Shown one piece after another: positions 12,180-20,639 of a DNA stretch of 38,572 bases. The position numbers were made by a program, and so were the translations under genes. The stretch is from a virus. The stretch lies in UHGV virus genome UHGV-0071757. One strand, 5' to 3'. The notes under the pieces were generated by a model. It had not been told where the DNA came from, did no database searches, and worked only from the letters and a program-made list of their open reading frames with translations. Position 1 is the stretch's first letter, and the number at the start of each line of letters is the position of its first letter.

Positions 12180-13595
12180 ATGGCTACGTGGCAACAGGGT
12201 ATTAATTCTGGTGGTTTTCTGGCTGGCATTGGTACGCAAAATGAGAATGCACCAAAGGCAAGCGACATTAACGCAACGCTTGGTCTGATTCGCGAAAACA
12301 ATGAACTGGCTCGATCAGGTGCAAATAACGTTGGTCTGACCGCGTTACGTGGTCTGGCTGGAGTTGCTGATATTTACAATCAGGAACAGCAACAGAAAGC
12401 GATTAGTGCGTTCAATAAGGTTCATGCTGATGCATGGGCTTCTGGTGATCCATCGGGACTATTTAAGTTTGCCCAGGAAAATCCAGCGTTTGTTGCACAG
12501 GCACAACAGGCGTTTTCCGGTCTTAATGATCAGCAACGCAACGATATGGGCGATTTAGCCATGAGGGCTAACGTAGCTCTTTCTCAGGGACCGGAAGCCT
12601 ACAGTAAATTCATTACTGACAACAAGGACAGGTTAAATCGCGTTGGTGCTAATGCTGACTGGATGATTCAGACAGGTATCCAGAATCCAGAGCAGCTATC
12701 ACACATGCTGACTACTATGTCTCTCGGTGCACTTGGGCCAGAAAAGGCGTTTGCTGTTCAGGACAAGATGGCTGGTCGTGAAATTGACCGAGGCAGACTG
12801 GCAGAGACAATCCGCAGCAATCAGGCTGGAGAAGCACTTCAGGCGAGAGGCCAAAACCTTTCCTATCAGTCAGCAATGACTGGGCACAATATCGCAGCAC
12901 AACGTTTGGCTCTGGATCAGCAAGAGTTCGGGTTTAAGATGCAGCAAGCGCAGGAAAAGGCTCAGCAGTTGATTAGCGAAGCACCTAAGCTGTCAGTAAA
13001 CATGGAAAAAGGCATCGAGACGGCTGTAAACAATGCCACAGCATCATCAAACTCAGCCAATTCTATGAGTGCGCTTGCTCAACAGTTCAGAGCAGAAAAA
13101 CCAACGACAGGTTTGTTCGGTAACGCACAGAACATGTTCGCAAAACTTACCGGAAGCGATACGACATTGCGTGATTTGCGCATTCGCCAAAATGCCCTTG
13201 TTAACAGTCAGGTTCTTAAATTCCTACCTCCCGGCCCCGCAACGGATAAAGACGTTGAGATCGTTCGTCAGGGTGCACCAACTGACATGGATAACCCTGA
13301 GACGGTCGCAAGATGGCTTGATGCTATGGCAAACCTTGAGCGACGAAACGCGCAGTTTAATGAGTTTAAAGCCGAGTGGATGAGCGCGAATGGCAACCCT
13401 GGACAATCGCGTAATGGCGGTCAGATATTGGGGTTGGATGTTAAAAAAGGTGAATCATTGGGGAGTGCCGTTAAGCGGTATATGTCAATGAATACTGACG
13501 CAGCGCCAGCACAAGATTCGACACCTTCAGGAGAACCACGGAATCAGGTTGGATCATATACCTCAAAATCAGGCATTCAATTTACGGTGGAATGA
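12180..13595 (+). CDS. ejection protein, P22 gp20-like
   Basis: 471 aa, the same length as P22 gp20. Conserved order. Confidence 0.75.
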
Positions 13596-15433
13596 TGAAA
13601 GTAACTGCAAACGGTAAGACATTTACCTTTCCTGATGGTACGAGCACCGAAGATATTGGCACCGCCATTGATGAGTATTTTGCTGGTCAGGCTGTTCAGC
13701 AACAAACAGCTAATCAGGCCAATAATGCACCAACACGGGAAGAACCATCATTGATGCAACAAGCTGGCGATTGGCTTACTGGTAGTCAAAGTGCAGGGCA
13801 AATTGCAGAACAGGCTGGTCGTGGTCTGGTAAACATACCATTTGACGTATTGCAGGGCGGCGCAAGTCTGATTAATGCAATCAGTCAGGGGCTTGGTGGA
13901 CCCAAGGTTTTGGATGATGTTTATCGTCCAGTAGACAGACCGACAGACCCCTACGCGCAAGCCGGTGAAACAATTGGTGGGTATTTAGTTCCAGGAGTTG
14001 GAACAGCAGGAAGCATGGCTATTGGATCACTGGCAGAGGCAGCAAATCAGAAAGGCGATTTCGCACAAAATGCAGCTAAAAATGCCGGAGTTAACCTTGC
14101 CGCTCAGGGTGTTCTTTCCGCAGCAGCAAAGGGAATAGGGCGTGGAATAACGGCTATAAAAGGTGATATTGCGCCAGAAGTGGCGAAGAAAATTGCCACA
14201 TCAGAATCTATGGGCGTGACACCAATGACATCTGATGTTATCCCGCCGAAAAATGCTTTCACTCGCGGCCTTACTCAGGATGCCGAGGGGGCTTTGCTCG
14301 GGACAGGCTCAAAGCGAGCGGAGCAATATGCAACGCGTAGTAAGCTGGTAAGCAATTATTTTGACCGTTTTGGTGAGTACAACCCTGATGACGTGGTGAA
14401 ATCTCTGACCACCACGTTAAGGGGGCGGAAGGATGCCGCTGGCGCTGTTATCAATGACGTCACCAATAAAATGGGTAATGCCGCAGTTGATACCACAAAT
14501 ACCATGAATGCTCTGAATACAGCGATCGCAAGACAGGAACGGCTTGGGACGTCTGCCAATCAAAGCCTGCTTACATCCTTGCGTAACCTACGTGAAGAAT
14601 TAGCAGACCCTGCAACTGATTTGGATGTTACGTTTGATCTCTTGCGTCAGCACAGAACAGCATTTAGATCTAATGTTCAGGGAGATGCTATGGTCTTCCC
14701 CAACCAGGCAAAAGCAGCTACCAATATGGTAGAGAATGCAATGTCAAAAGACCTTCGTAACGCAGTTGCTAAAAACCTCGGTGCATCAGACGCAGCAAAA
14801 TACCTTAAAGCAAATTCCGATTATGCAAACGTTTATAATAAGGTGCTTAATAAAAACATTGCTAACAAGCTCAACAAGGCAAGCAGTGAAGCCAGTCCTG
14901 AACTTATAAATACCGTTGTATTAAGCAGAAAACCATCTGACGTGAAACGAATCTGGAGCGCATTGGATGATAAAGGGAAAGATGCTATGCGTGCAGCTTA
15001 CGTCAGCAAAATAGCGGAAAAGGCTGGTGACTCTCCAGCCAAGTTCATCACTGAAGTTAATAAGCTGAAATCTCAGTCAGGCGGTGAAATTTACAACACT
15101 ATTTTTTCTGGAAAGCACATGAAAGAGCTTGATGCTCTTCATGAAGTTCTACAGCAAACAGCAAGGTCAGACACCGCAAATGTAGTAACTCAGACGGGGC
15201 AATCGCAAGCCAACAGGATAAGGACGATTGGCGCAACTGCGACTCTTGGCGTATCAATGGGGCTTGAGGCTGGTTTCGGTGCAATGATGCGCTTGTATGA
15301 GTCCAAAGCAGCAAGGAATGCTCTCTTACGTTTGGCAAACACCAAAGCAGGAACGCCAGCCTATGAAAGAGCGTTGAGTAACGCTGCAAATGCCATCAGG
15401 CCGCTGCTTGCTACTGAGGCAACACAGCAGTAA
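13592..15433 (+). CDS. ejection protein, P22 gp16-like
   Basis: 613 aa, overlapping gp20 (ATGA). Size and order as P22 gp16. Confidence 0.75.
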
Positions 15434-15457
15434 CGTATGGGGAATGGGATTCAATCG

Positions 15458-15847
15458 TTAACATTTTCTTTTTACTTTTCCAACAAAAGCTTTGGTTGAA
15501 TCCATATTCCCATAACCAGAAATGGTTTTCGACATTAAAACTGTTCCATTAGGATGTATTACCCATGAGTCGATAACTCGTTGAGTTTCGCCATTCGCGC
15601 CGATTCCAATGATGGAGTTTTTAGACAATGCTTTGTAAGCCATGCCGCCCGCATCCGTCCCAGAATATGTGATACTGGCATCTTCACCGTTTGTCTTAAT
15701 GATGAATGTTCCACTAAAACCATCTTCTTCCGGTTGAAAATTATTTCGTTCTGAATAGCTTATTCCGTGCATATCGCCAACGACCCAGCACTCTGCTGTA
15801 GCCCCAAAAGATATGAATAAGAACATAGCAGCAAGAACTTTCTTCAC
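15458..15847 (-). CDS. secreted small protein (moron at sieA/immI position)
   Basis: 129 aa with GTG start, preceded by a strong SD (AAGGAGG). N-terminal signal peptide MKKVLAAMFLFISFGATA. Opposite strand to the late operon. Confidence 0.6.
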   Translation of the reverse strand: MKKVLAAMFLFISFGATAECWVVGDMHGISYSERNNFQPEEDGFSGTFIIKTNGEDASITYSGTDAGGMAYKALSKNSIIGIGANGETQRVIDSWVIHPNGTVLMSKTISGYGNMDSTKAFVGKVKRKC

Positions 15848-15952
15848 ACCAACCTCCTTAGTTTTGAGCAGGATACCATGAAAAAAGTAAACATCTTTTG
15901 CCTACTTCACATTTGAATGTTTTGTCATTAGGATGTTTCCGGTTTTTTAAAT

Positions 15953-16384
15953 ATGGAAATTGATATGAAGAGGATTATTAGCGTCGTTGCTGGCGCTATC
16001 ATGTTATCTGGGTGCGCAACTATTGTTGGTGATGAAACGCAACTTGTGCAAGTGAACAGCAATCCTTCCGGTGCGAGCTTTAAGGTAAAAGACGAATCAG
16101 GCGTGATTGTTGCGCAAGGTAAGACCCCGCAAGGAGTAACTCTTGCCAAGTCAGATGGTAGTTATTTTGGCAAAAAGAGCTACCAGATCACTATGGAGAA
16201 GGATGGGTACGAACCAGTTACCCTGCCAATCAAAGCCAATGCTAATGGTTGGTATATTGGTGGAAACCTTGTGTTTGGTGGGTTAATTGGTTGGCTTGCT
16301 GTAGATCCATTTAATGGTGGGATGTATACCTTGAAGCCTAAAGAGGCAAATGCATCCCTTATACCGTCCACAAAGCACGACTAA
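15953..16384 (+). CDS. lipoprotein (moron), possibly PEGA-like
   Basis: 143 aa. Lipobox AIMLSGC after a signal sequence (a likelier start is the ATG at 15965). Divergent from the secreted-protein gene. Confidence 0.6.
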   Translation: MEIDMKRIISVVAGAIMLSGCATIVGDETQLVQVNSNPSGASFKVKDESGVIVAQGKTPQGVTLAKSDGSYFGKKSYQITMEKDGYEPVTLPIKANANGWYIGGNLVFGGLIGWLAVDPFNGGMYTLKPKEANASLIPSTKHD

Positions 16385-16400
16385 TAAATGGAACCCACCA

Positions 16401-16652
16401 TCAGGTGGGTTTTTTGTACAAATCCTTCAGCGTATCAAACACCATCTTCTTAACAAGTTCGGACTGCTCATCAGCGATGCGTTCCGCATCGTCTCGATAG
16501 CCTGAAATTTTGGATGGCTTTGATACAGCATCAGTCACTATCTGAACTAATTCTGAATTAAGAGAGCGGCCATTGGATTTGGCTCGCTGTTTTAGTTTTT
16601 CCTTTAATTCGTAAGGTAGCCGCAGATTAAATTGCGGGTCATCTCTTCCCAT
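16401..16652 (-). CDS. mnt: Mnt-type ribbon-helix-helix repressor
   Basis: 83 aa. Arc/Mnt signature DDPQFNLRLPYELKEKLKQRAKSNGRSLNSELVQIV and C-terminus resemble P22 Mnt as I recall it. Confidence 0.85.
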   Translation of the reverse strand: MGRDDPQFNLRLPYELKEKLKQRAKSNGRSLNSELVQIVTDAVSKPSKISGYRDDAERIADEQSELVKKMVFDTLKDLYKKPT

Positions 16653-16715
16653 TCTTGATGCCTCGCTTTTGTGAGTGGATCGGCATCTTATTATCTGCTG
16701 GTTGCATCCTCAATA

Positions 16716-16730
16716 AGACCACAGTGGTCT
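16716..16730. promoter_or_regulatory. putative Mnt operator (palindrome AGACCACaGTGGTCT)
   Basis: Perfect 7-1-7 palindrome about 64 bp upstream of the mnt start, between mnt and the tailspike gene. Confidence 0.4.
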
Positions 16731-16798
16731 CTTTGTTTGATTAATAATACATCACTGTGGCAATGCTGCGGCGATTCCTTGTATCTGGAGCAAATTAA

Positions 16799-19744
16799 AT
16801 GACAGACATTACAGCCAATGTTGTAGTGAGTATGCCTTCGCAACTCTTCACTATGGCGCGTTCTTTTAAAGCCGTAGCCAATGGCAAAATTTATATCGGT
16901 AAAATTGACACTGACCCGGTAAATCCTGAAAACCAGATTCAGGTTTATGTAGAGAACGAAGACGGTTCTCACATTCCTGTTTCGCAACCAATAATCATTA
17001 ACGCTGCTGGATATCCGGTATATAACGGACAGATTGCCAAATTCGTAACCGTGCAAGGCCATTCTATGGCTGTTTATGATGCGTATGGTACACAGCAGTT
17101 CTATTTTCCGAATGTGCTGAAGTATGATCCTGATCAGTTACGACAGCAATTAGAAGACCCAGATGGAGCGAATAAATACCCAAAACTTCAGATAGCAAGA
17201 TGGAGAGACAGTTATGATGTAAGAGGTTGGGGGGCTATTGGTGATGGTGTTCATGATGATACATCAGCTCTATCAGAATTACTTTCTGTTGCAACAGGTG
17301 GTGAAAAGATAGATGGGCGAGGGCTTACTTTTAAAGTATCAACTCTTCCAGATGTCAGTCGATTTAAAAATGCTCGTTTTTTATTTGAGAGAATACCGGG
17401 TCAGCCTCTTTTTTATGCTTCTGAAGATTTTATCCAAGGAGAGTTATTTAAAATTACAGATACACCGTGGTACAACGCCTGGACGCAGGATAAAACGTTT
17501 GTATATGACAATGTCATCTATGCGCCTTTTATGGCTGGAGACCGCCATGGTGTAAATAACCTCCATGTTGCATGGGTTCGCTCAGGAGATGACGGGAAGA
17601 CCTGGACAACGCCGGAATGGCTTACAGATTTACATGAAAACTATCCCACAGTTAACTATCACTGCATGAGTATGGGGGTTGTCAGAAATCGCCTTTTTGC
17701 TGTAATTGAGACGCGGACCGTGAGCGGAAATAAACTGCAGGTTGCAGAGTTGTGGGATCGCCCAATGAGTCGCAGCCTTCGCGTTTATGGTGGTATAACG
17801 AAAGCAGCAAATCAGCAAGTCGCTTATATTCGCATTACTGATCACGGATTATTTGCTGGTGATTTTGTCAACTTCTCAAACTCTGGTGTTACAGGTGTTA
17901 CCGGGAATATGACGGTGACTACTGTCATTGATAAAAATACTTTTACAGTTACGACGCAAAATACCCAGGATGTGGATCAGAATAACGAGGGTAGATACTG
18001 GAGTTTTGGTACATCATTTCACTCGTCACCATGGAGAAAAACCAGTCTTGGAACTATTCCTTCTTTTGTTGACGGAAGCACTCCTGTTACTGAGATTCAC
18101 AGTTTTGCGACGATTAGCGATAACAGTTTTGCTGTTGGCTACCATAATGGTGATATTGATCCACGCGAGCTTGGGATACTCTATTTCTCTGATGCTTTCG
18201 GTTCTCCTGGTAGCTTTGTTCGCAGACGCATACCTGTAGAATATGAGGCGAATGCATCTGAGCCATGTGTAAAATATTATGATGGCATTCTGTATCTGAC
18301 GACCAGGGGGACATTAAGTACTCAACCCGGTAGTTCATTGCACAGAAGCTCTGATTTAGGTACATCATGGAATTCTCTTCGCTTCCCAAATAATGTTCAT
18401 CACTCAAACCTTCCTTTTGCCAAAGTTGGCGATGAGCTGATTATTTTTGGCAGTGAGCGCGCATTTGGTGAGTGGGAAGGAGGAGAACCTGATAACCGTT
18501 ATGCAGGAAATTATCCAAGAACATTTATGACCAGAGTTAACGTCAATGAGTGGAGTCTGGATAATGTAGAGTGGGTTAATGTTACTGATCAGATTTATCA
18601 GGGCGGAATAGTTAACTCTGCGGTTGGTGTTGGTTCAGTTTGTATCAAAGACAACTGGCTGTACTACATTTTCGGTGGGGAAGACTTTCTAAACCCATGG
18701 AGCATAGGGGATAACAACAGAAAATATCCTTATGTTCACGATGGTCACCCGGCTGATTTGTATTGTTTCAGGGTGAAAATTAAACAGGAAGAATTTGTTT
18801 CAAGGGATTTTGTCTACGGAGCCACTCCTAACAGAACGCTTCCTACTTTTATGTCGACGTCAGGCGTGAGGACGGTTCCTGTACCCGTTGATTTCACAGA
18901 TGATGTTGCCGTCCAGTCACTGACTGTCCATGCCGGTACATCAGGACAAGTTCGCGCGGAAGTCAAACTTGAGGGTAATTACGCCATTATTGCGAAGAAA
19001 GTACCGTCTGATGATGTTACCGCTCAGAGATTAATCGTTAGCGGCGGTGAAACAACGTCTTCAGCAGATGGCGCAATGATAACGTTGCATGGTTCCGGAA
19101 GCAGTACTCCACGTCGCGCGGTATATAACGCACTCGAACATCTTTTTGAGAACGGAGATGTTAAACCTTATCTTGATAATGTAAATGCTCTTGGTGGTCC
19201 GGGAAACAGGTTCTCGACAGTTTATCTTGGCTCCAATCCTGTGGTTACCAGTGACGGAACATTAAAGACAGAGGCGGTCTCTCCTGACGAAGCATTGCTG
19301 GATGCCTGGGGTGACGTCAGGTATATCGCTTATAAATGGCTGAACGCTGTCGCTATAAAGGGGGAAGAAGGGGCGAGGATACATCATGGTGTAATCGCGC
19401 AGCAACTTCGTGATGTTCTTATTTCTCACGGACTCATGGAAGAAGAAAGCACAACATGCCGCTATGCCTTTCTTTGCTATGACGATTATCCCGCAGTATA
19501 TGATGACGTCATTACTGGCCAAAGGGAAATACCGCTGACTGATAATGACGGGAGCATCATTGTTGATGAGGATGATAATCCAGTGATGGTAATGGAAGAC
19601 ATCATTGAGCGCGTTGAAATAACGCCAGCAGGATCTAGATGGGGGGTCAGACCTGATCTCTTATTCTATATCGAGGCGGCATGGCAGCGCAGAGAAATAG
19701 AAAGAATAAAAGCTAGGTTAGACTTAATAGAAGGGAAGCACTAA
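16799..19744 (+). CDS. tailspike: P22-like head-binding domain + sialidase-like (endosialidase) domain + C-terminal intramolecular chaperone domain
   Basis: 981 aa. N-terminus [11 protein letters not shown]...[21 protein letters not shown] like P22 gp9. Two Asp-box motifs ([16 protein letters not shown]). C-terminal ~150 aa resemble autoproteolytic chaperone domains of endosialidases and tail fibres. Confidence 0.85.
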
Positions 19745-19897: not shown

Positions 19898-20639
19898 ATG
19901 TCAAGACTCAAGACTCAAGACTCAAGACTCAAGACTCAAGACTCAAGACTCAAGACTCAAGACTCAAGACTCAAGACTCAAGACTCAAGACTCGTTTTCC
20001 GTTGATGATAATGGGTCAGGTAATATTTTTGTATGTGGAGATCTTGTAAATAGCAAAGAGAATAAAGTTCAGTTCAATGGAAACAATAACAAACTTATTA
20101 TAGAAGATGATGTTGAGTGTCGATGGCTTACCGTAATATTTAGGGGTGATAATAATTACGTAAGAATACATAAAAACAGTAAGATTAAAGGTGATATTGT
20201 CGCAACAAAAGGTTCAAAAGTTATTATCGGTAGAAGAACGACAATAGGTGCAGGTTTTGAAGTCGTCACTGATAAGTGCAATGTTACAATTGGCCATGAC
20301 TGCATGATAGCAAGAGATGTTATTTTGCGTGCATCAGATGGGCATCCTATATTTGATATTCATAGCAAAAAAAGGATTAATTGGGCAAAAGATATCATTA
20401 TATCTAGTTACGTATGGGTAGGGAGAAATGTCTCTATAATGAAAGGGGTATCTGTTGGAAGCGGATCTGTCATTGGGTATGGGAGTATTGTAACTAAAGA
20501 TGTGCCATCTATGTGTGCAGCAGCCGGTAATCCAGCAAAAATAATAAAAAGAAATATAATATGGGCAAGAACGGATAAAGCGGAGCTAATTAGTGATGAC
20601 AAGAGATGCTCCAGCTATCATGCGAAGCTCACGCAATAA
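19898..20639 (+). CDS. neuO: phase-variable polysialic acid O-acetyltransferase NeuO-like; out of frame (OFF) in this sequence
   Basis: ATG 19898 is followed by 13 AAGACTC heptads encoding RLKTQDS repeats. The ATG frame stops at TGA 20003-20005. The hexapeptide-repeat acyltransferase body (frame ending 20639) lies in a different frame from the ATG. Confidence 0.85.
19903..19993 (+). repeat. (AAGACTC)x13 heptanucleotide tandem repeat
   Basis: Counted directly: 91 nt, 13 perfect 7-nt units starting 5 nt after the neuO ATG. Confidence 0.95.

What the first reader, a model, noticed from the sequence alone, without database searches (positions are those of the whole stretch)
15458..16384. Divergent moron pair (secreted protein + lipoprotein) at the sieA/immI position
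In P22 the interval between gp16 and mnt carries superinfection-exclusion genes. Here that slot holds a minus-strand gene for a 129-aa signal-peptide protein with a very strong SD, and a plus-strand 143-aa lipoprotein (lipobox LSGC) with a possible PEGA-like motif (GYEPVTLPI). Both are predicted envelope proteins expressed independently of the late operon, so they are candidate lysogenic-conversion or exclusion factors.
Basis: inference. Interest (0 to 1): 0.5.

Follow-up and report, generated by a model that had tools for sequence, protein, structure and literature searches.

The report
Two envelope-protein morons in sieA slot
Between the last DNA-ejection gene and the mnt repressor, this K1-capsule-specific P22-like prophage of E. 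coli carries two separately mobile accessory genes. One encodes a secreted small beta-barrel related to the phage 434 exclusion protein Hex, the other an outer-membrane lipoprotein, and both are ordinary but plausible candidates for blocking infection by other phages.

Summary
Both ORFs are real, intact and under purifying selection. The window is a CUS-3-like P22-family prophage, 100% identical to E. coli strain E1 over 15400-16700.

**ORF-A (15458-15847, minus strand, 129 aa):**
- GTG start, AAGGAGG Shine-Dalgarno and a Sec-type signal peptide.
- Confident eight-stranded beta-barrel model, bracketed by conserved N- and C-terminal cysteines.
- It sits where P22 has sieA and keeps the sieA start codon, ribosome site and -10 region (96% identity over 50 bp).
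- It belongs to the same family (PHROG 2651) as phage 434 Hex ("heterologous exclusion") and Sf6 gp38.

**ORF-B (best start 15965, 139 aa, ends 16384):**
- It is the epsilon34 gp15 lipoprotein: lipobox LSGC, transthyretin/PEGA-like sandwich and a conserved glycine-zipper segment.
- It has a predicted promoter and terminator of its own.
- Homologues recur in unrelated prophages, including the HK97 gp15 exclusion-moron slot.

**The pair:** the two genes assort independently. ORF-A is in 147, ORF-B in 124, and both adjacent in 42 of 5426 E. coli genomes, so they are not a functional pair.

**Verdict:** Function is inferred, not shown. These are new members of known kinds. Side insight: the Hex family looks periplasmic, which conflicts with the published cytoplasmic model.

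The parts
13592..15433 (+). gp16-type DNA ejection protein; last gene of the virion/ejection block and left border of the slot
   Evidence: ORF list. PGAP names it 'P22-gp16 family phage DNA ejection protein' in the identical E. coli E1 prophage.
15458..15847 (-). ORF-A: 129-aa Hex-family (PHROG 2651) secreted protein; the mature 111-aa part is modelled as an eight-stranded beta-barrel
   Evidence: phrog_2651 E=2.3e-61. 29% full-length identity to 434 Hex. A family HMM built without Hex scores Hex at 124 bits. AF2 mean pLDDT 94.4. dN/dS 0.18.
15794..15847 (-). Codons of the predicted Sec signal peptide MKKVLAAMFLFISFGATA, with predicted cleavage before Glu19-Cys20
   Evidence: Hydrophobicity peak at residues 8-17. 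All 83 full-length family representatives have a hydrophobic N-terminus; 66 have an AxA-x-C motif. The Cys is invariant.
15853..15859 (-). Shine-Dalgarno AAGGAGG, 5 nt before the GTG start of ORF-A
   Evidence: Read directly from the sequence. Identical in P22 sieA, epsilon34 gene 14 and Emek orf129.
15845..15894 (.). Conserved cassette junction: start codon, ribosome site and promoter-proximal region shared with P22 sieA
   Evidence: blastn 96% identity over 50 bp to P22 locus positions 1829-1878, which begin at the sieA GTG. The annotated P22 sieA promoter overlaps this stretch.
15870..15878 (-). Extended -10-like element TGgTATCCT for ORF-A, conserved with P22 sieA; the -35 region is not conserved
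   Evidence: My own scan finds TTCCAA-18-TG-n-TATCCT in P22. The same -10 is present here, without a good -35. This is a consensus match only.
15906..15934 (+). Promoter-like site TTCACA-17-TAGGAT for ORF-B; the -10 ends 30 nt before the ATG at 15965
   Evidence: A similarly placed site occurs upstream of ORF-B homologues in epsilon34, 720R6, Proteus, E. coli ED1a-type and Pseudescherichia prophages. The count in this region is not above the shuffle expectation.
15965..16384 (+). ORF-B: 139-aa lipoprotein of the epsilon34 gp15 family (PHROG 6823). The upstream ATG at 15953 would give the 143-aa form.
   Evidence: phrog_6823 E=3.8e-86. 98.6% identical to epsilon34 gp15. 715 homologues. dN/dS 0.03-0.16.
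15965..16015 (+). Lipoprotein signal peptide with lipobox LSGC; Cys17 codon at 16013-16015; Ala at position +2
   Evidence: Sequence. Cys17 and Ala18 are invariant and Gly16 at least 90% conserved in 61 homologues.
16034..16246 (+). Transthyretin-like / PEGA-like beta-sandwich, residues about 24-94, including GYEPVTLPI
16247..16321 (+). Highly conserved glycine-zipper hydrophobic segment GWYIGGNLVFGGLIGWLAVDPFNGG, residues 95-119
   Evidence: Most of the invariant columns of the family lie here. Moderate hydrophobicity peak at 104-109. AF2 confidence is low, 52-66.
16392..16411 (.). GC-rich hairpin followed by a T-run on the plus strand; a two-way terminator shared by ORF-B and mnt
   Evidence: and the sequence. 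epsilon34 annotates a Rho-independent terminator at the same place.
16401..16652 (-). mnt (Arc/Mnt repressor), right border of the slot; arc and ant are absent
   Evidence: Pfam Arc 2.8e-22 and Repressor_Mnt 2.2e-18. The tailspike gene follows directly.

Best explanation
The interval holds two independent, self-contained prophage accessory genes ('morons') in the hypervariable slot between ejection gene 16 and mnt of a CUS-3-like P22-family prophage.

ORF-A:
- It has replaced sieA behind the same start codon, ribosome site and -10 region.
- It is made as a 129-aa precursor and exported by the Sec pathway.
- It is cleaved before Glu19 and folds into a soluble periplasmic eight-stranded beta-barrel of 111 aa, probably closed by a Cys20-Cys129 disulfide.
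- It is a member of the phage 434 Hex / Sf6 gp38 family. Most likely it acts in the periplasm of the lysogen to stop a superinfecting phage at the entry stage (heterologous exclusion). A plausible way is by binding a component that the incoming virion releases into the periplasm.

ORF-B:
- It is the epsilon34 gp15-type lipoprotein.
- It is lipidated on Cys17 and sorted to the outer membrane (Ala at +2).
- It carries a periplasmic transthyretin/PEGA-like sandwich and a conserved glycine-zipper segment that probably dips into the membrane.
- It is transcribed from its own promoter and ends at its own terminator.
- Its role is most likely also envelope-level, either exclusion of other phages or a change of the host surface.

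Shown here: gene integrity, family membership, slot and 5'-signal conservation, predicted folds, and independent mobility.

Inferred: export, lipidation, expression in the lysogen, and the exclusion function.
For: Slot:
- P22 sieA lies at the same place and in the same orientation.
- Window 15845-15894 is 96% identical to the sieA GTG, Shine-Dalgarno and upstream region.
- The window has no SieA homologue.
- Every alternative occupant of the slot is an envelope protein: SieA has three transmembrane segments, epsilon34 gp14/hkcB has an N-terminal membrane anchor, and the 720R6 161-aa protein is a lipoprotein.

ORF-A family:
- tblastn hits to 434, Sf6, HK446, HK633, Sf101 and Huey lie directly downstream of cI.
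- Pairwise E=2e-15 to Hex; same PHROG 2651; family HMM 124 bits.
- Hex is co-transcribed with cI in lysogens and was named for exclusion of P22 (PMC3564112).
- The signal peptide and the terminal cysteines are conserved family-wide.
- Other members sit in the same gp16-convergent slot of other P22-like phages, once as a tandem pair.
- Others sit in a slot after the lysis genes on the opposite strand, and next to RexA/RexB morons in tail-gene clusters.

ORF-B:
- Lipobox conservation, fold, and a promoter plus terminator in six contexts.
- Homologues lie between the tail chaperone and tape-measure genes of HK97-like and Proteus prophages and between tail genes I and J.
- The chaperone/tape-measure site is the HK97 gp15 moron slot. 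gp15 is a published superinfection-exclusion protein (Cumby et al. 2012, cited in PMC10883804).

Other:
- GC content is lower than in the neighbouring virion genes.
- Independent assortment: ORF-A in 147, ORF-B in 124, and both adjacent in 42 of 5426 E. coli genomes.
Against: - No expression or phenotype data exist for either gene.
- The only biochemical study of a family member assigns Hex a cytoplasmic role, blocking RecA-stimulated repressor autocleavage (PMC3564112).
- The ORF-A promoter has only a conserved extended -10 and no good -35. Promoter-like sites in the region are no more frequent than in shuffled sequence.
- ORF-B homologues also occur as lone chromosomal genes outside prophages. 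They are 55-80% identical across genera and phage types. That fits a general envelope role better than blocking of one particular phage receptor.
- PADLOC has no match for either protein.
- No signal-peptide predictor was run.
Confidence: 0.6

Rival explanations
1. ORF-A works like the published model of 434 Hex. In that model it is a cytoplasmic protein that stabilises lysogeny by protecting the prophage repressor from RecA-stimulated autocleavage. It would not be an envelope exclusion factor.
For: - Family membership with Hex.
- Deletion of hex raises spontaneous induction 30-fold in recA+ cells only.
- A Hex fragment blocks cleavage of the 434 and P22 repressors in vitro (PMC3564112).
Against: - All 83 full-length family representatives have a hydrophobic N-terminal signal-like segment, and 76 have a C-terminal Cys partner for the invariant Cys after the cleavage site.
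- The active fragment 'sHex' (E43-N103 of a 158-aa reading) corresponds to E19-N79 of the 134-aa form. It therefore begins exactly at the predicted signal-peptidase site and covers only about half the barrel.
- Full-length Hex was toxic when over-produced.
- Here the gene is not linked to the repressor gene.
- Family members occur in phages with unrelated immunity regions and in tail or lysis-gene slots.
Confidence: 0.08
2. One or both genes are lysogenic-conversion factors that benefit the bacterial host, for example in serum or antimicrobial-peptide resistance, envelope robustness or adhesion, in the manner of lambda Bor or Lom. They would not be anti-phage functions.
For: - The host is an avian/extraintestinal K1-type E. 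coli, and the prophage lies next to vat.
- ORF-B homologues are widespread, highly conserved and sometimes chromosomal.
- One ORF-A relative sits after the lysis genes on the opposite strand, as bor does in lambda (the position of bor is from my own knowledge).
Against: - No sequence similarity to Bor, Lom, Ail or TraT was reported by Pfam, NCBIfam or PHROGs.
- ORF-A's only characterised relative has a phage-related phenotype.
- The slots in which both genes recur hold proven exclusion genes: sieA, HK97 gp15 and rexAB.
Confidence: 0.22
3. ORF-A is a small integral outer-membrane beta-barrel of the OmpX/Ail/Lom/PagP kind, as one phage record annotates its Hex homologue. It would not be a soluble periplasmic protein.
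For: - The phage Huey record names its homologue 'PagP'.
Against: - The mature protein has only 111 residues, and several modelled strands are 6-7 residues long.
- The C-terminus is KVKRKC, not an aromatic-ended beta-signal.
- A conserved Cys pair brackets the barrel.
- No Pfam outer-membrane-protein family is hit by any of 78 members.
- Soluble barrels (NHBA, Cap15, fHbp, avidins) score equally well.
Confidence: 0.08
4. ORF-A is a periplasmic inhibitor or immunity protein against an incoming enzyme, such as a cell-wall hydrolase delivered by a phage virion or a secretion-system effector, in the style of the MliC/PliC lysozyme inhibitors. This is a specific version of the main explanation.
For: - It is a small periplasmic barrel with a conserved Cys pair.
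- Distant family members lie in arrays of small same-strand ORFs and near a Tse2/Tsi2 toxin-immunity pair.
- Some P22-like ejection proteins in this position are annotated as lytic transglycosylases (hit H24).
Against: - There is no sequence match to MliC or PliC in Pfam.
- The fold match is generic.
- No target has been identified.
Confidence: 0.15

Closest known systems
Phage 434 Hex ('heterologous exclusion' / 'repressor protection protein') and Sf6 gp38
   Same: - Same protein family: PHROG 2651, 29% identity over the full length.
- Same size, and same signal-peptide-like N-terminus followed by E-C-W.
- Same C-terminal FVG-x-V-x-x-x-C ending.
- It is a prophage accessory gene in a slot known for exclusion genes.
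   Different: - Hex lies directly downstream of cI on the PRM transcript, in the place of lambda rexAB. ORF-A lies downstream of gene 16 behind the sieA expression signals.
- Hex has been described as a cytoplasmic 158-aa protein (PMC3564112). The family features seen here point to a 134-aa secreted precursor.
Phage P22 SieA
   Same: Same genomic position and orientation, the same GTG start, Shine-Dalgarno sequence and -10 region, and an envelope location. In P22 it is expressed from the prophage (PMC10883804).
   Different: No sequence similarity. [quoted passage not shown] ORF-A has a cleavable signal peptide and a soluble barrel.
Salmonella phage epsilon34 gp15
   Same: ORF-B is 98.6% identical to it, in the same slot, with the same intergenic region and terminator.
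   Different: None of substance. In epsilon34 the divergent neighbour is an hkcB homologue rather than a Hex-family gene. The epsilon34 paper lists gene 15 as being of unknown function (PMC2629481).
HK97 gp15 superinfection-exclusion moron
   Same: ORF-B homologues occupy exactly the gp15 slot, between the tail chaperone and the tape-measure gene, in HK97-like E. coli prophages. Each has a promoter and terminator of its own.
   Different: The proteins are unrelated. gp15 is a 62-aa product, reported as an inner-membrane protein (my recollection of Cumby et al. 2012). ORF-B is a 139-aa lipoprotein.
Exclusion lipoproteins Cor (phi80/N15) and Llp (T5); lambda Bor
   Same: They are small phage-encoded outer-membrane lipoproteins made in the lysogen or early in infection.
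   Different: Similarity to Cor is limited to the signal peptide and lipobox: PHROG 1119 matches residues 5-24 only, and the NCBIfam Cor model gives 13.3 bits against a cutoff of 31. Pfam reports no Bor match.

Membership tests
Hex family (PHROG 2651: 434 Hex, Sf6 gp38) | Significant full-length sequence similarity to 434 Hex / Sf6 gp38 | tested here: met
   phrog_2651 E=2.3e-61 for ORF-A and 1.4e-58 for Hex. BLASTP E=2e-15. A family HMM built without Hex scores Hex at 124 bits.
Hex family (PHROG 2651: 434 Hex, Sf6 gp38) | Signal-peptide-like N-terminus followed by x-C-[WY], plus a C-terminal Cys | tested here: met
   The Cys after the predicted cleavage site is invariant and the C-terminal Cys is at least 90% conserved. 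Of 83 representatives, 83 have a hydrophobic N-terminus and 76 a C-terminal Cys.
Hex family (PHROG 2651: 434 Hex, Sf6 gp38) | Location directly downstream of cI on the PRM transcript | tested here: not met
   ORF-A lies after gene 16, not in the immunity region. This is a property of the 434-type locus, not of the protein family.
Hex family (PHROG 2651: 434 Hex, Sf6 gp38) | Excludes heterologous phage (P22) and/or lowers spontaneous induction | not testable with these tools
   Needs plating and induction assays.
SieA superinfection-exclusion proteins | Sequence similarity to SieA | tested here: not met
   tblastn of P22 SieA against the window finds nothing at E<=1. Only the P22 type of SieA was used as query.
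SieA superinfection-exclusion proteins | Inner-membrane protein with several transmembrane segments | tested here: not met
   ORF-A has one N-terminal hydrophobic stretch only. P22 SieA shows three.
SieA superinfection-exclusion proteins | Position convergent with gene 16, and the sieA 5' expression signals | tested here: met
Bacterial lipoproteins (Lgt/LspA substrates) | Lipobox [LVI][ASTVI][GAS]C at the end of a signal peptide | tested here: met
   ORF-B has LSGC with Cys17, conserved across the family. ORF-A has E at position -1 and is not a lipoprotein.
Bacterial lipoproteins (Lgt/LspA substrates) | Actual lipid modification and outer-membrane sorting | not testable with these tools
   Ala at +2 predicts outer-membrane sorting by the E. 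coli Lol rule (established knowledge). This needs labelling and fractionation.
Pfam PEGA domain (PF08308) | Score at or above the Pfam gathering threshold | tested here: not met
   17.5 bits against 20.8. Only 9 of 61 homologues hit at E<=0.01, best 4e-4.
Transthyretin-like / carboxypeptidase-regulatory-like beta-sandwich fold | Structural match of a confident model | tested here: met
Cor / Llp exclusion lipoproteins | Sequence similarity beyond the signal peptide | tested here: not met
   The PHROG 1119 match covers residues 5-24 only. The NCBIfam Cor model is below its cutoff.
Moron (autonomous accessory transcription unit in a phage operon) | Own promoter and terminator, inserted between genes that are adjacent in related phages, and different base composition | tested here: met
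   Promoter-like site plus terminator at ORF-B homologues in six contexts. Slot content varies between P22, epsilon34, Emek, 720R6 and CUS-3. GC is 0.38-0.46 here against 0.47-0.51 in the neighbouring genes. These are predictions from sequence only.
Moron (autonomous accessory transcription unit in a phage operon) | Transcription in the repressed prophage | not testable with these tools
   Needs RNA-seq or 5'-RACE on a lysogen.
Integral outer-membrane 8-stranded barrels (OmpX/Ail/Lom/PagP) | Family sequence match, membrane-spanning strand length and a C-terminal aromatic beta-signal | tested here: not met
   No Pfam hit in 78 members. The mature protein is 111 aa with 6-9-residue strands. The C-terminus is KVKRKC.
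Known anti-phage defence systems (PADLOC) | Match to a PADLOC model | tested here: not met
   No family for either protein at E<=1.

The most novel reading that the evidence does not exclude
Hex-family proteins, including 434 Hex itself, would be periplasmic disulfide-closed beta-barrels that block entry of heterologous phages from within the periplasm.

On this reading the published cytoplasmic 'repressor protection' model rests on two things. One is an over-long 158-aa reading frame. The other is a half-barrel fragment whose N-terminus is really the signal-peptidase cleavage site.

ORF-A would then be a soluble periplasmic replacement for the membrane protein SieA, in the same expression cassette of P22-like phages.
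Probability: 0.35. Interest if true: 0.6.

Novelty: new member of a known kind. Interest (0 to 1): 0.4.

Why it matters
- The gene 16-mnt slot of P22-like phages is a known swap site for prophage-expressed genes. This window adds a case in which sieA is replaced, precisely at the start codon, by a member of the Hex family.
- That links two classical but poorly understood exclusion loci: P22 sieA and 434 hex.
- It makes one question directly testable: does Hex-type exclusion act in the periplasm? This would revise the only mechanistic paper on the family.
- The lipoprotein is a widespread, strongly conserved moron found in about 2% of complete E. coli genomes and in many Enterobacterales prophages. 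It sits in slots that hold proven exclusion genes, yet it has no assigned function.
- Both genes are cheap to test by expression in a non-lysogen.

Tried and rejected
Searches that gave nothing useful:
- PDB sequence searches with single proteins and with family profiles.
- PADLOC. NCBIfam gave only sub-threshold hits.
- Foldseek of the ORF-A model against BFVD viral structures: no match at E<=0.001.
- Rfam on 15300-16900: only a chance-level hit.
- Pfam on 78 ORF-A family members: no family.
- Literature searches found no paper that links Hex to a signal peptide, and none on the ORF-B family.

Ideas considered and rejected:
- The two genes form an operon-like functional pair. They assort independently.
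- ORF-B is a Cor or Llp homologue. The match covers the signal peptide only.
- ORF-A is a lipoprotein. It has Glu at position -1.
- ORF-A is an OmpX/PagP-type membrane barrel.
- The 143-aa start for ORF-B and the 122-aa PGAP start for ORF-A.
Full report
**What the window is.** Positions 15400-16700 are 100% identical to a prophage in the chromosome of E. coli strain E1 from a broiler, where the prophage lies beside vat. The gene order is that of a P22-like phage: capsid, gp4, gp10, gp7, gp20, gp16, then mnt and the tailspike. The tailspike (16799-19744) is an endosialidase with a P22-type head-binding domain and is 98.8% identical to that of CUS-3. Downstream lies a neuO-type heptanucleotide repeat. 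The element is therefore a CUS-3-like, K1-capsule-specific member of Lederbergvirus.

**The observation.** Both ORFs are present as described.

ORF-A:
- It spans 15458-15847 on the minus strand and begins at GTG, five bases after AAGGAGG.
- It encodes MKKVLAAMFLFISFGATA|ECW..., which has a basic n-region, a hydrophobic core and an A-x-A cleavage motif.
- PGAP chose Met8 as the start.
- Homologues keep the full N-terminus, for example MERFLAGVFLFISFGATAEC and MKRLIVGALMLASFGASAEC.
- The GTG and Shine-Dalgarno sequence are shared with P22 sieA, so the 129-aa form is preferred.

ORF-B:
- It is best started at 15965 (139 aa, MKRIISVVAGAIMLSGC), as in epsilon34, PGAP and the family alignment.
- The ATG at 15953 has no ribosome site.

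Both genes evolve under purifying selection. dN/dS is 0.18 for ORF-A against Emek, and 0.03-0.16 for ORF-B against epsilon34 and 720R6.

**The slot.**
- In P22 the minus-strand gene that follows gene 16 after 22 bp is sieA, with an annotated promoter just upstream. Here ORF-A follows gp16 after 24 bp.
- blastn shows that window 15845-15894 is 96% identical to P22 from the sieA GTG outward. The shared stretch contains the GTG, the AAGGAGG site and a TG-n-TATCCT extended -10-like element.
- The same 5' block precedes epsilon34 gene 14 (an hkcB homologue) and Emek orf129.
- Different coding sequences have thus been exchanged exactly at the start codon, behind a shared expression block.
- SieA is prophage-expressed and blocks DNA injection by P22-like phages (PMC10883804).
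- The window has no SieA homologue.
- Slot content differs in every phage examined:

| Phage | Content of the slot |
|---|---|
| P22 | sieA, orf59a, mnt, arc, ant |
| epsilon34 | gene 14, gene 15, mnt, arc, ant |
| Emek | orf129 and five other ORFs |
| 720R6 | a 161-aa gene, ORF-B, mnt |
| CUS-3 | hkcB, two ORFs, two mnt copies, ant |

- The epsilon34 genome paper already calls this the variable 'ant moron' and lists genes 14 and 15 as being of unknown function (PMC2629481).
- All the alternative minus-strand occupants are envelope proteins. SieA has three hydrophobic segments, gp14/hkcB has an N-terminal anchor, and the 720R6 protein has the lipobox LAGC.

**ORF-A: family.**
- Pfam, NCBIfam, PADLOC and PDB sequence searches give nothing. 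PHROGs places it in phrog_2651, of unknown function.
- Close homologues are few, 22 clusters from E. coli and Salmonella. An exhaustive phmmer search finds 94 cluster representatives, nearly all 120-150 aa.
- tblastn against phage genomes finds full-length matches of about 29% identity in 434, lambda imm434, Sf6 (gene 38), HK446, HK633, Sf101 and Huey.
- In the three records examined (434B, Sf6, Huey) the match lies immediately downstream of the cI-type repressor.
- In the 434 records this gene is 'repressor protection protein', that is, hex.
- The pairwise alignment (E=2e-15) runs end to end and keeps the E-C-W after the signal peptide and the FVG-x-V...C ending.
- Hex and Sf6 gp38 fall in the same PHROG. 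An HMM built from 78 family members without Hex scores Hex at 124 bits.

**ORF-A: structure and location.**
- AlphaFold2 with that alignment gives mean pLDDT 94.4. The model has an N-terminal helix (the signal peptide) followed by nine DSSP strands.
- I favour a soluble periplasmic barrel for four reasons:
  - The mature protein is 111 aa with short strands.
  - The C-terminus is KVKRKC rather than an aromatic beta-signal.
  - The Cys after the cleavage site is invariant and the C-terminal Cys nearly so. These lie at the start of the first strand and the end of the last. In a closed antiparallel barrel those ends are neighbours, so a disulfide is likely; this is inference.
  - No outer-membrane-protein family is hit.

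**What is known about Hex, and a discrepancy.**
- Shkilnyj et al. (PMC3564112) report that hex is co-transcribed with cI from PRM in lysogens.
- The gene was named for exclusion of P22 by lambda imm434 lysogens of Salmonella.
- A hex deletion raises spontaneous induction 30-fold in recA+ cells, and a fragment called sHex inhibits RecA-stimulated cleavage of the 434 and P22 repressors in vitro.
- They read the ORF as 158 aa from the 5'-most AUG.
- Translating the 434 sequence shows that this is a 24-aa extension (MAYDSYQRELQDYRCCRGSEGKIR) in front of the 134-aa form that the 434B record annotates with its own ribosome site.
- Their sHex runs from E43 to N103. Subtracting 24 gives E19 to N79, so the fragment starts exactly at the predicted cleavage site ANS|ECW. 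It ends about half-way through the barrel.
- They also found full-length Hex lethal on over-production, and the paper never mentions a signal sequence.
- Together with the family-wide signal peptide and Cys pair, this suggests that Hex-family proteins are exported. That is my inference, not a demonstrated fact, and the cytoplasmic model is kept as a rival.

**ORF-A: other contexts.**
- A 50%-identical member sits in the same gp16-convergent slot of another P22-like phage, as a tandem pair of paralogues that are 36% identical to each other.
- A 37%-identical member sits in the same slot next to an Arc-family gene and a P22-type tailspike.
- A 36%-identical member lies after the lysis genes on the opposite strand.
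- A 33%-identical member lies between the tail chaperone and tape-measure genes, in one case beside RexA/RexB genes.
- More distant members lie in arrays of small same-strand ORFs and near a Tse2/Tsi2 pair.
- The family is thus a recurrent moron in several slots that are known or suspected to hold lysogen-expressed defence genes.

**ORF-B: family and contexts.**
- It is 98.6% identical to epsilon34 gp15 and about 97-98% identical to genes in phages Gally and 720R6. It falls in phrog_6823, of unknown function.
- There are at least 715 homologues across Enterobacterales, and the 120 best-scoring are 55-97% identical.
- The lipobox Cys and the following Ala are invariant. The most conserved stretch is NGWYIGGN-x-x-FGG-x-IG-x-x-VDPFNGGMY.
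- Homologues occur in these places:
  - between the tail chaperone and tape-measure genes of HK97-like E. coli prophages and of Proteus prophages;
  - between tail genes I and J in Pseudescherichia;
  - as lone chromosomal genes in Kosakonia and one other bacterial genome assembly.
- The chaperone/tape-measure site is where HK97 has its gp15 'moron product', a published superinfection-exclusion gene (reference 8 in PMC10883804).

**ORF-B: structure and expression signals.**
- AlphaFold2 (mean pLDDT 78.7) gives a confident beta-sandwich for residues about 24-94, a low-confidence segment at 95-119, and two further strands that rejoin the sandwich.
- In six contexts the gene is preceded by a sigma-70-like site whose -10 ends 29-35 nt before the ATG. 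In the five contexts whose downstream sequence was examined, plus the Kosakonia chromosomal copy, a GC-rich hairpin and T-run follow.
- This is the textbook anatomy of a moron. The promoter calls are consensus matches only.

**Are the two genes a unit?** No.
- Emek shares only the ORF-A module (window 15300-15878). epsilon34 shares 15845-16499, which covers the intergenic region and ORF-B. 720R6 shares the window from 15955 onward.
- Among 5426 complete E. coli genomes, ORF-A is in 147, ORF-B in 124, and both adjacent in 42.

**Mechanism, with degrees of support.**
- Shown: gene integrity, family links, slot and 5'-signal conservation, predicted folds, and modular mobility.
- Inferred with good support: ORF-A is exported and ORF-B is a lipoprotein, and both are transcribed independently of the late operon. 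ORF-B would also be read through from it.
- Inferred with moderate support: ORF-A excludes heterologous phages at the entry step. The basis is its Hex homology, its position in the sieA cassette and its periplasmic location.
- Weakly supported: ORF-B acts in exclusion rather than in host fitness. Its high conservation across phage types and its chromosomal copies argue for a general envelope partner.

**Novelty and score.**
- Both genes are already present, as hypothetical proteins, in published phage genomes. The slot is a known variable moron, so this is a new member of known kinds.
- Three things appear not to be in the searched literature:
  - the link between the sieA-slot gene and 434 Hex;
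  - the evidence that the Hex family is secreted;
  - the observation that sHex starts at the predicted signal-peptidase site.
- Interest is 0.4.

Noticed in passing
window 19901-19993 and 19995-20639: There are 13.3 perfect copies of the heptanucleotide TCAAGAC (= AAGACTC) directly after an ATG, followed by a hexapeptide-repeat acetyltransferase body in a different frame. This is the neuO-type phase-variable K1-capsule O-acetyltransferase of CUS-3, which has 19 copies. With 13 copies the ATG frame runs into stop codons, so the gene appears to be phase-OFF. PGAP annotates only a 111-aa 'acyltransferase'.
   Followed up: partly
window 16401-16798: The immI region is reduced to mnt alone; arc, sar and ant are absent. 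The tailspike gene therefore lies directly downstream of the mnt-tailspike intergenic region, where P22 has Pant/Pmnt. CUS-3 itself has two mnt copies plus ant.
   Followed up: partly
L013 2429-2905 (phage 434B) and PMC3564112: The published 158-aa Hex reading frame equals a 24-aa upstream extension plus the 134-aa form. The 'active fragment' sHex (E43-N103) begins exactly at the predicted signal-peptidase site of the 134-aa form and covers only about half of the predicted barrel.
   Followed up: yes
L015 2501-2905 (phage Huey): The Hex homologue is annotated as 'antimicrobial peptide resistance and lipid A acylation protein PagP'. This is probably a fold-level mis-annotation of a small beta-barrel.
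   Followed up: partly
L004 8059-8427 (E. coli E1, PGAP): The RefSeq start for ORF-A (122 aa, Met8) removes the basic n-region of the signal peptide. The GTG start seven codons upstream, with AAGGAGG, is supported by homologues and by P22 sieA.
   Followed up: yes
L025 3359-4164: Two tandem Hex-family paralogues, 36% identical to each other, lie in the gp16-convergent slot of an uncultured P22-like phage. This suggests diversification within the slot.
   Followed up: partly
L029 1047-7428 and L030: A distant Hex-family member lies in a long array of small same-strand ORFs separated by about 70-140 bp (including HEPN, DUF4272, DUF1761 and DUF6678). The array resembles an integron cassette array or an immunity-gene island. 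It was not examined for attC sites.
   Followed up: no
L034 5559-6822: RexA and RexB homologues sit as morons inside a siphophage tail-gene cluster, next to a Hex-family gene. This points to a defence hotspot between the tail chaperone and the tape-measure gene.
   Followed up: no
L009 and L011 10261-11424: The HK97-like E. coli prophages that carry the ORF-B homologue also carry a porin gene (Porin_1/Porin_4) inserted between the minor tail genes M and L.
   Followed up: no
window 13592-15433: The gp16-type ejection protein gives no Pfam hit at E<=0.001, although PGAP names it as P22-gp16 family. This fits the extreme divergence of gp16 reported for P22-like phages (PMC10883804).
   Followed up: no
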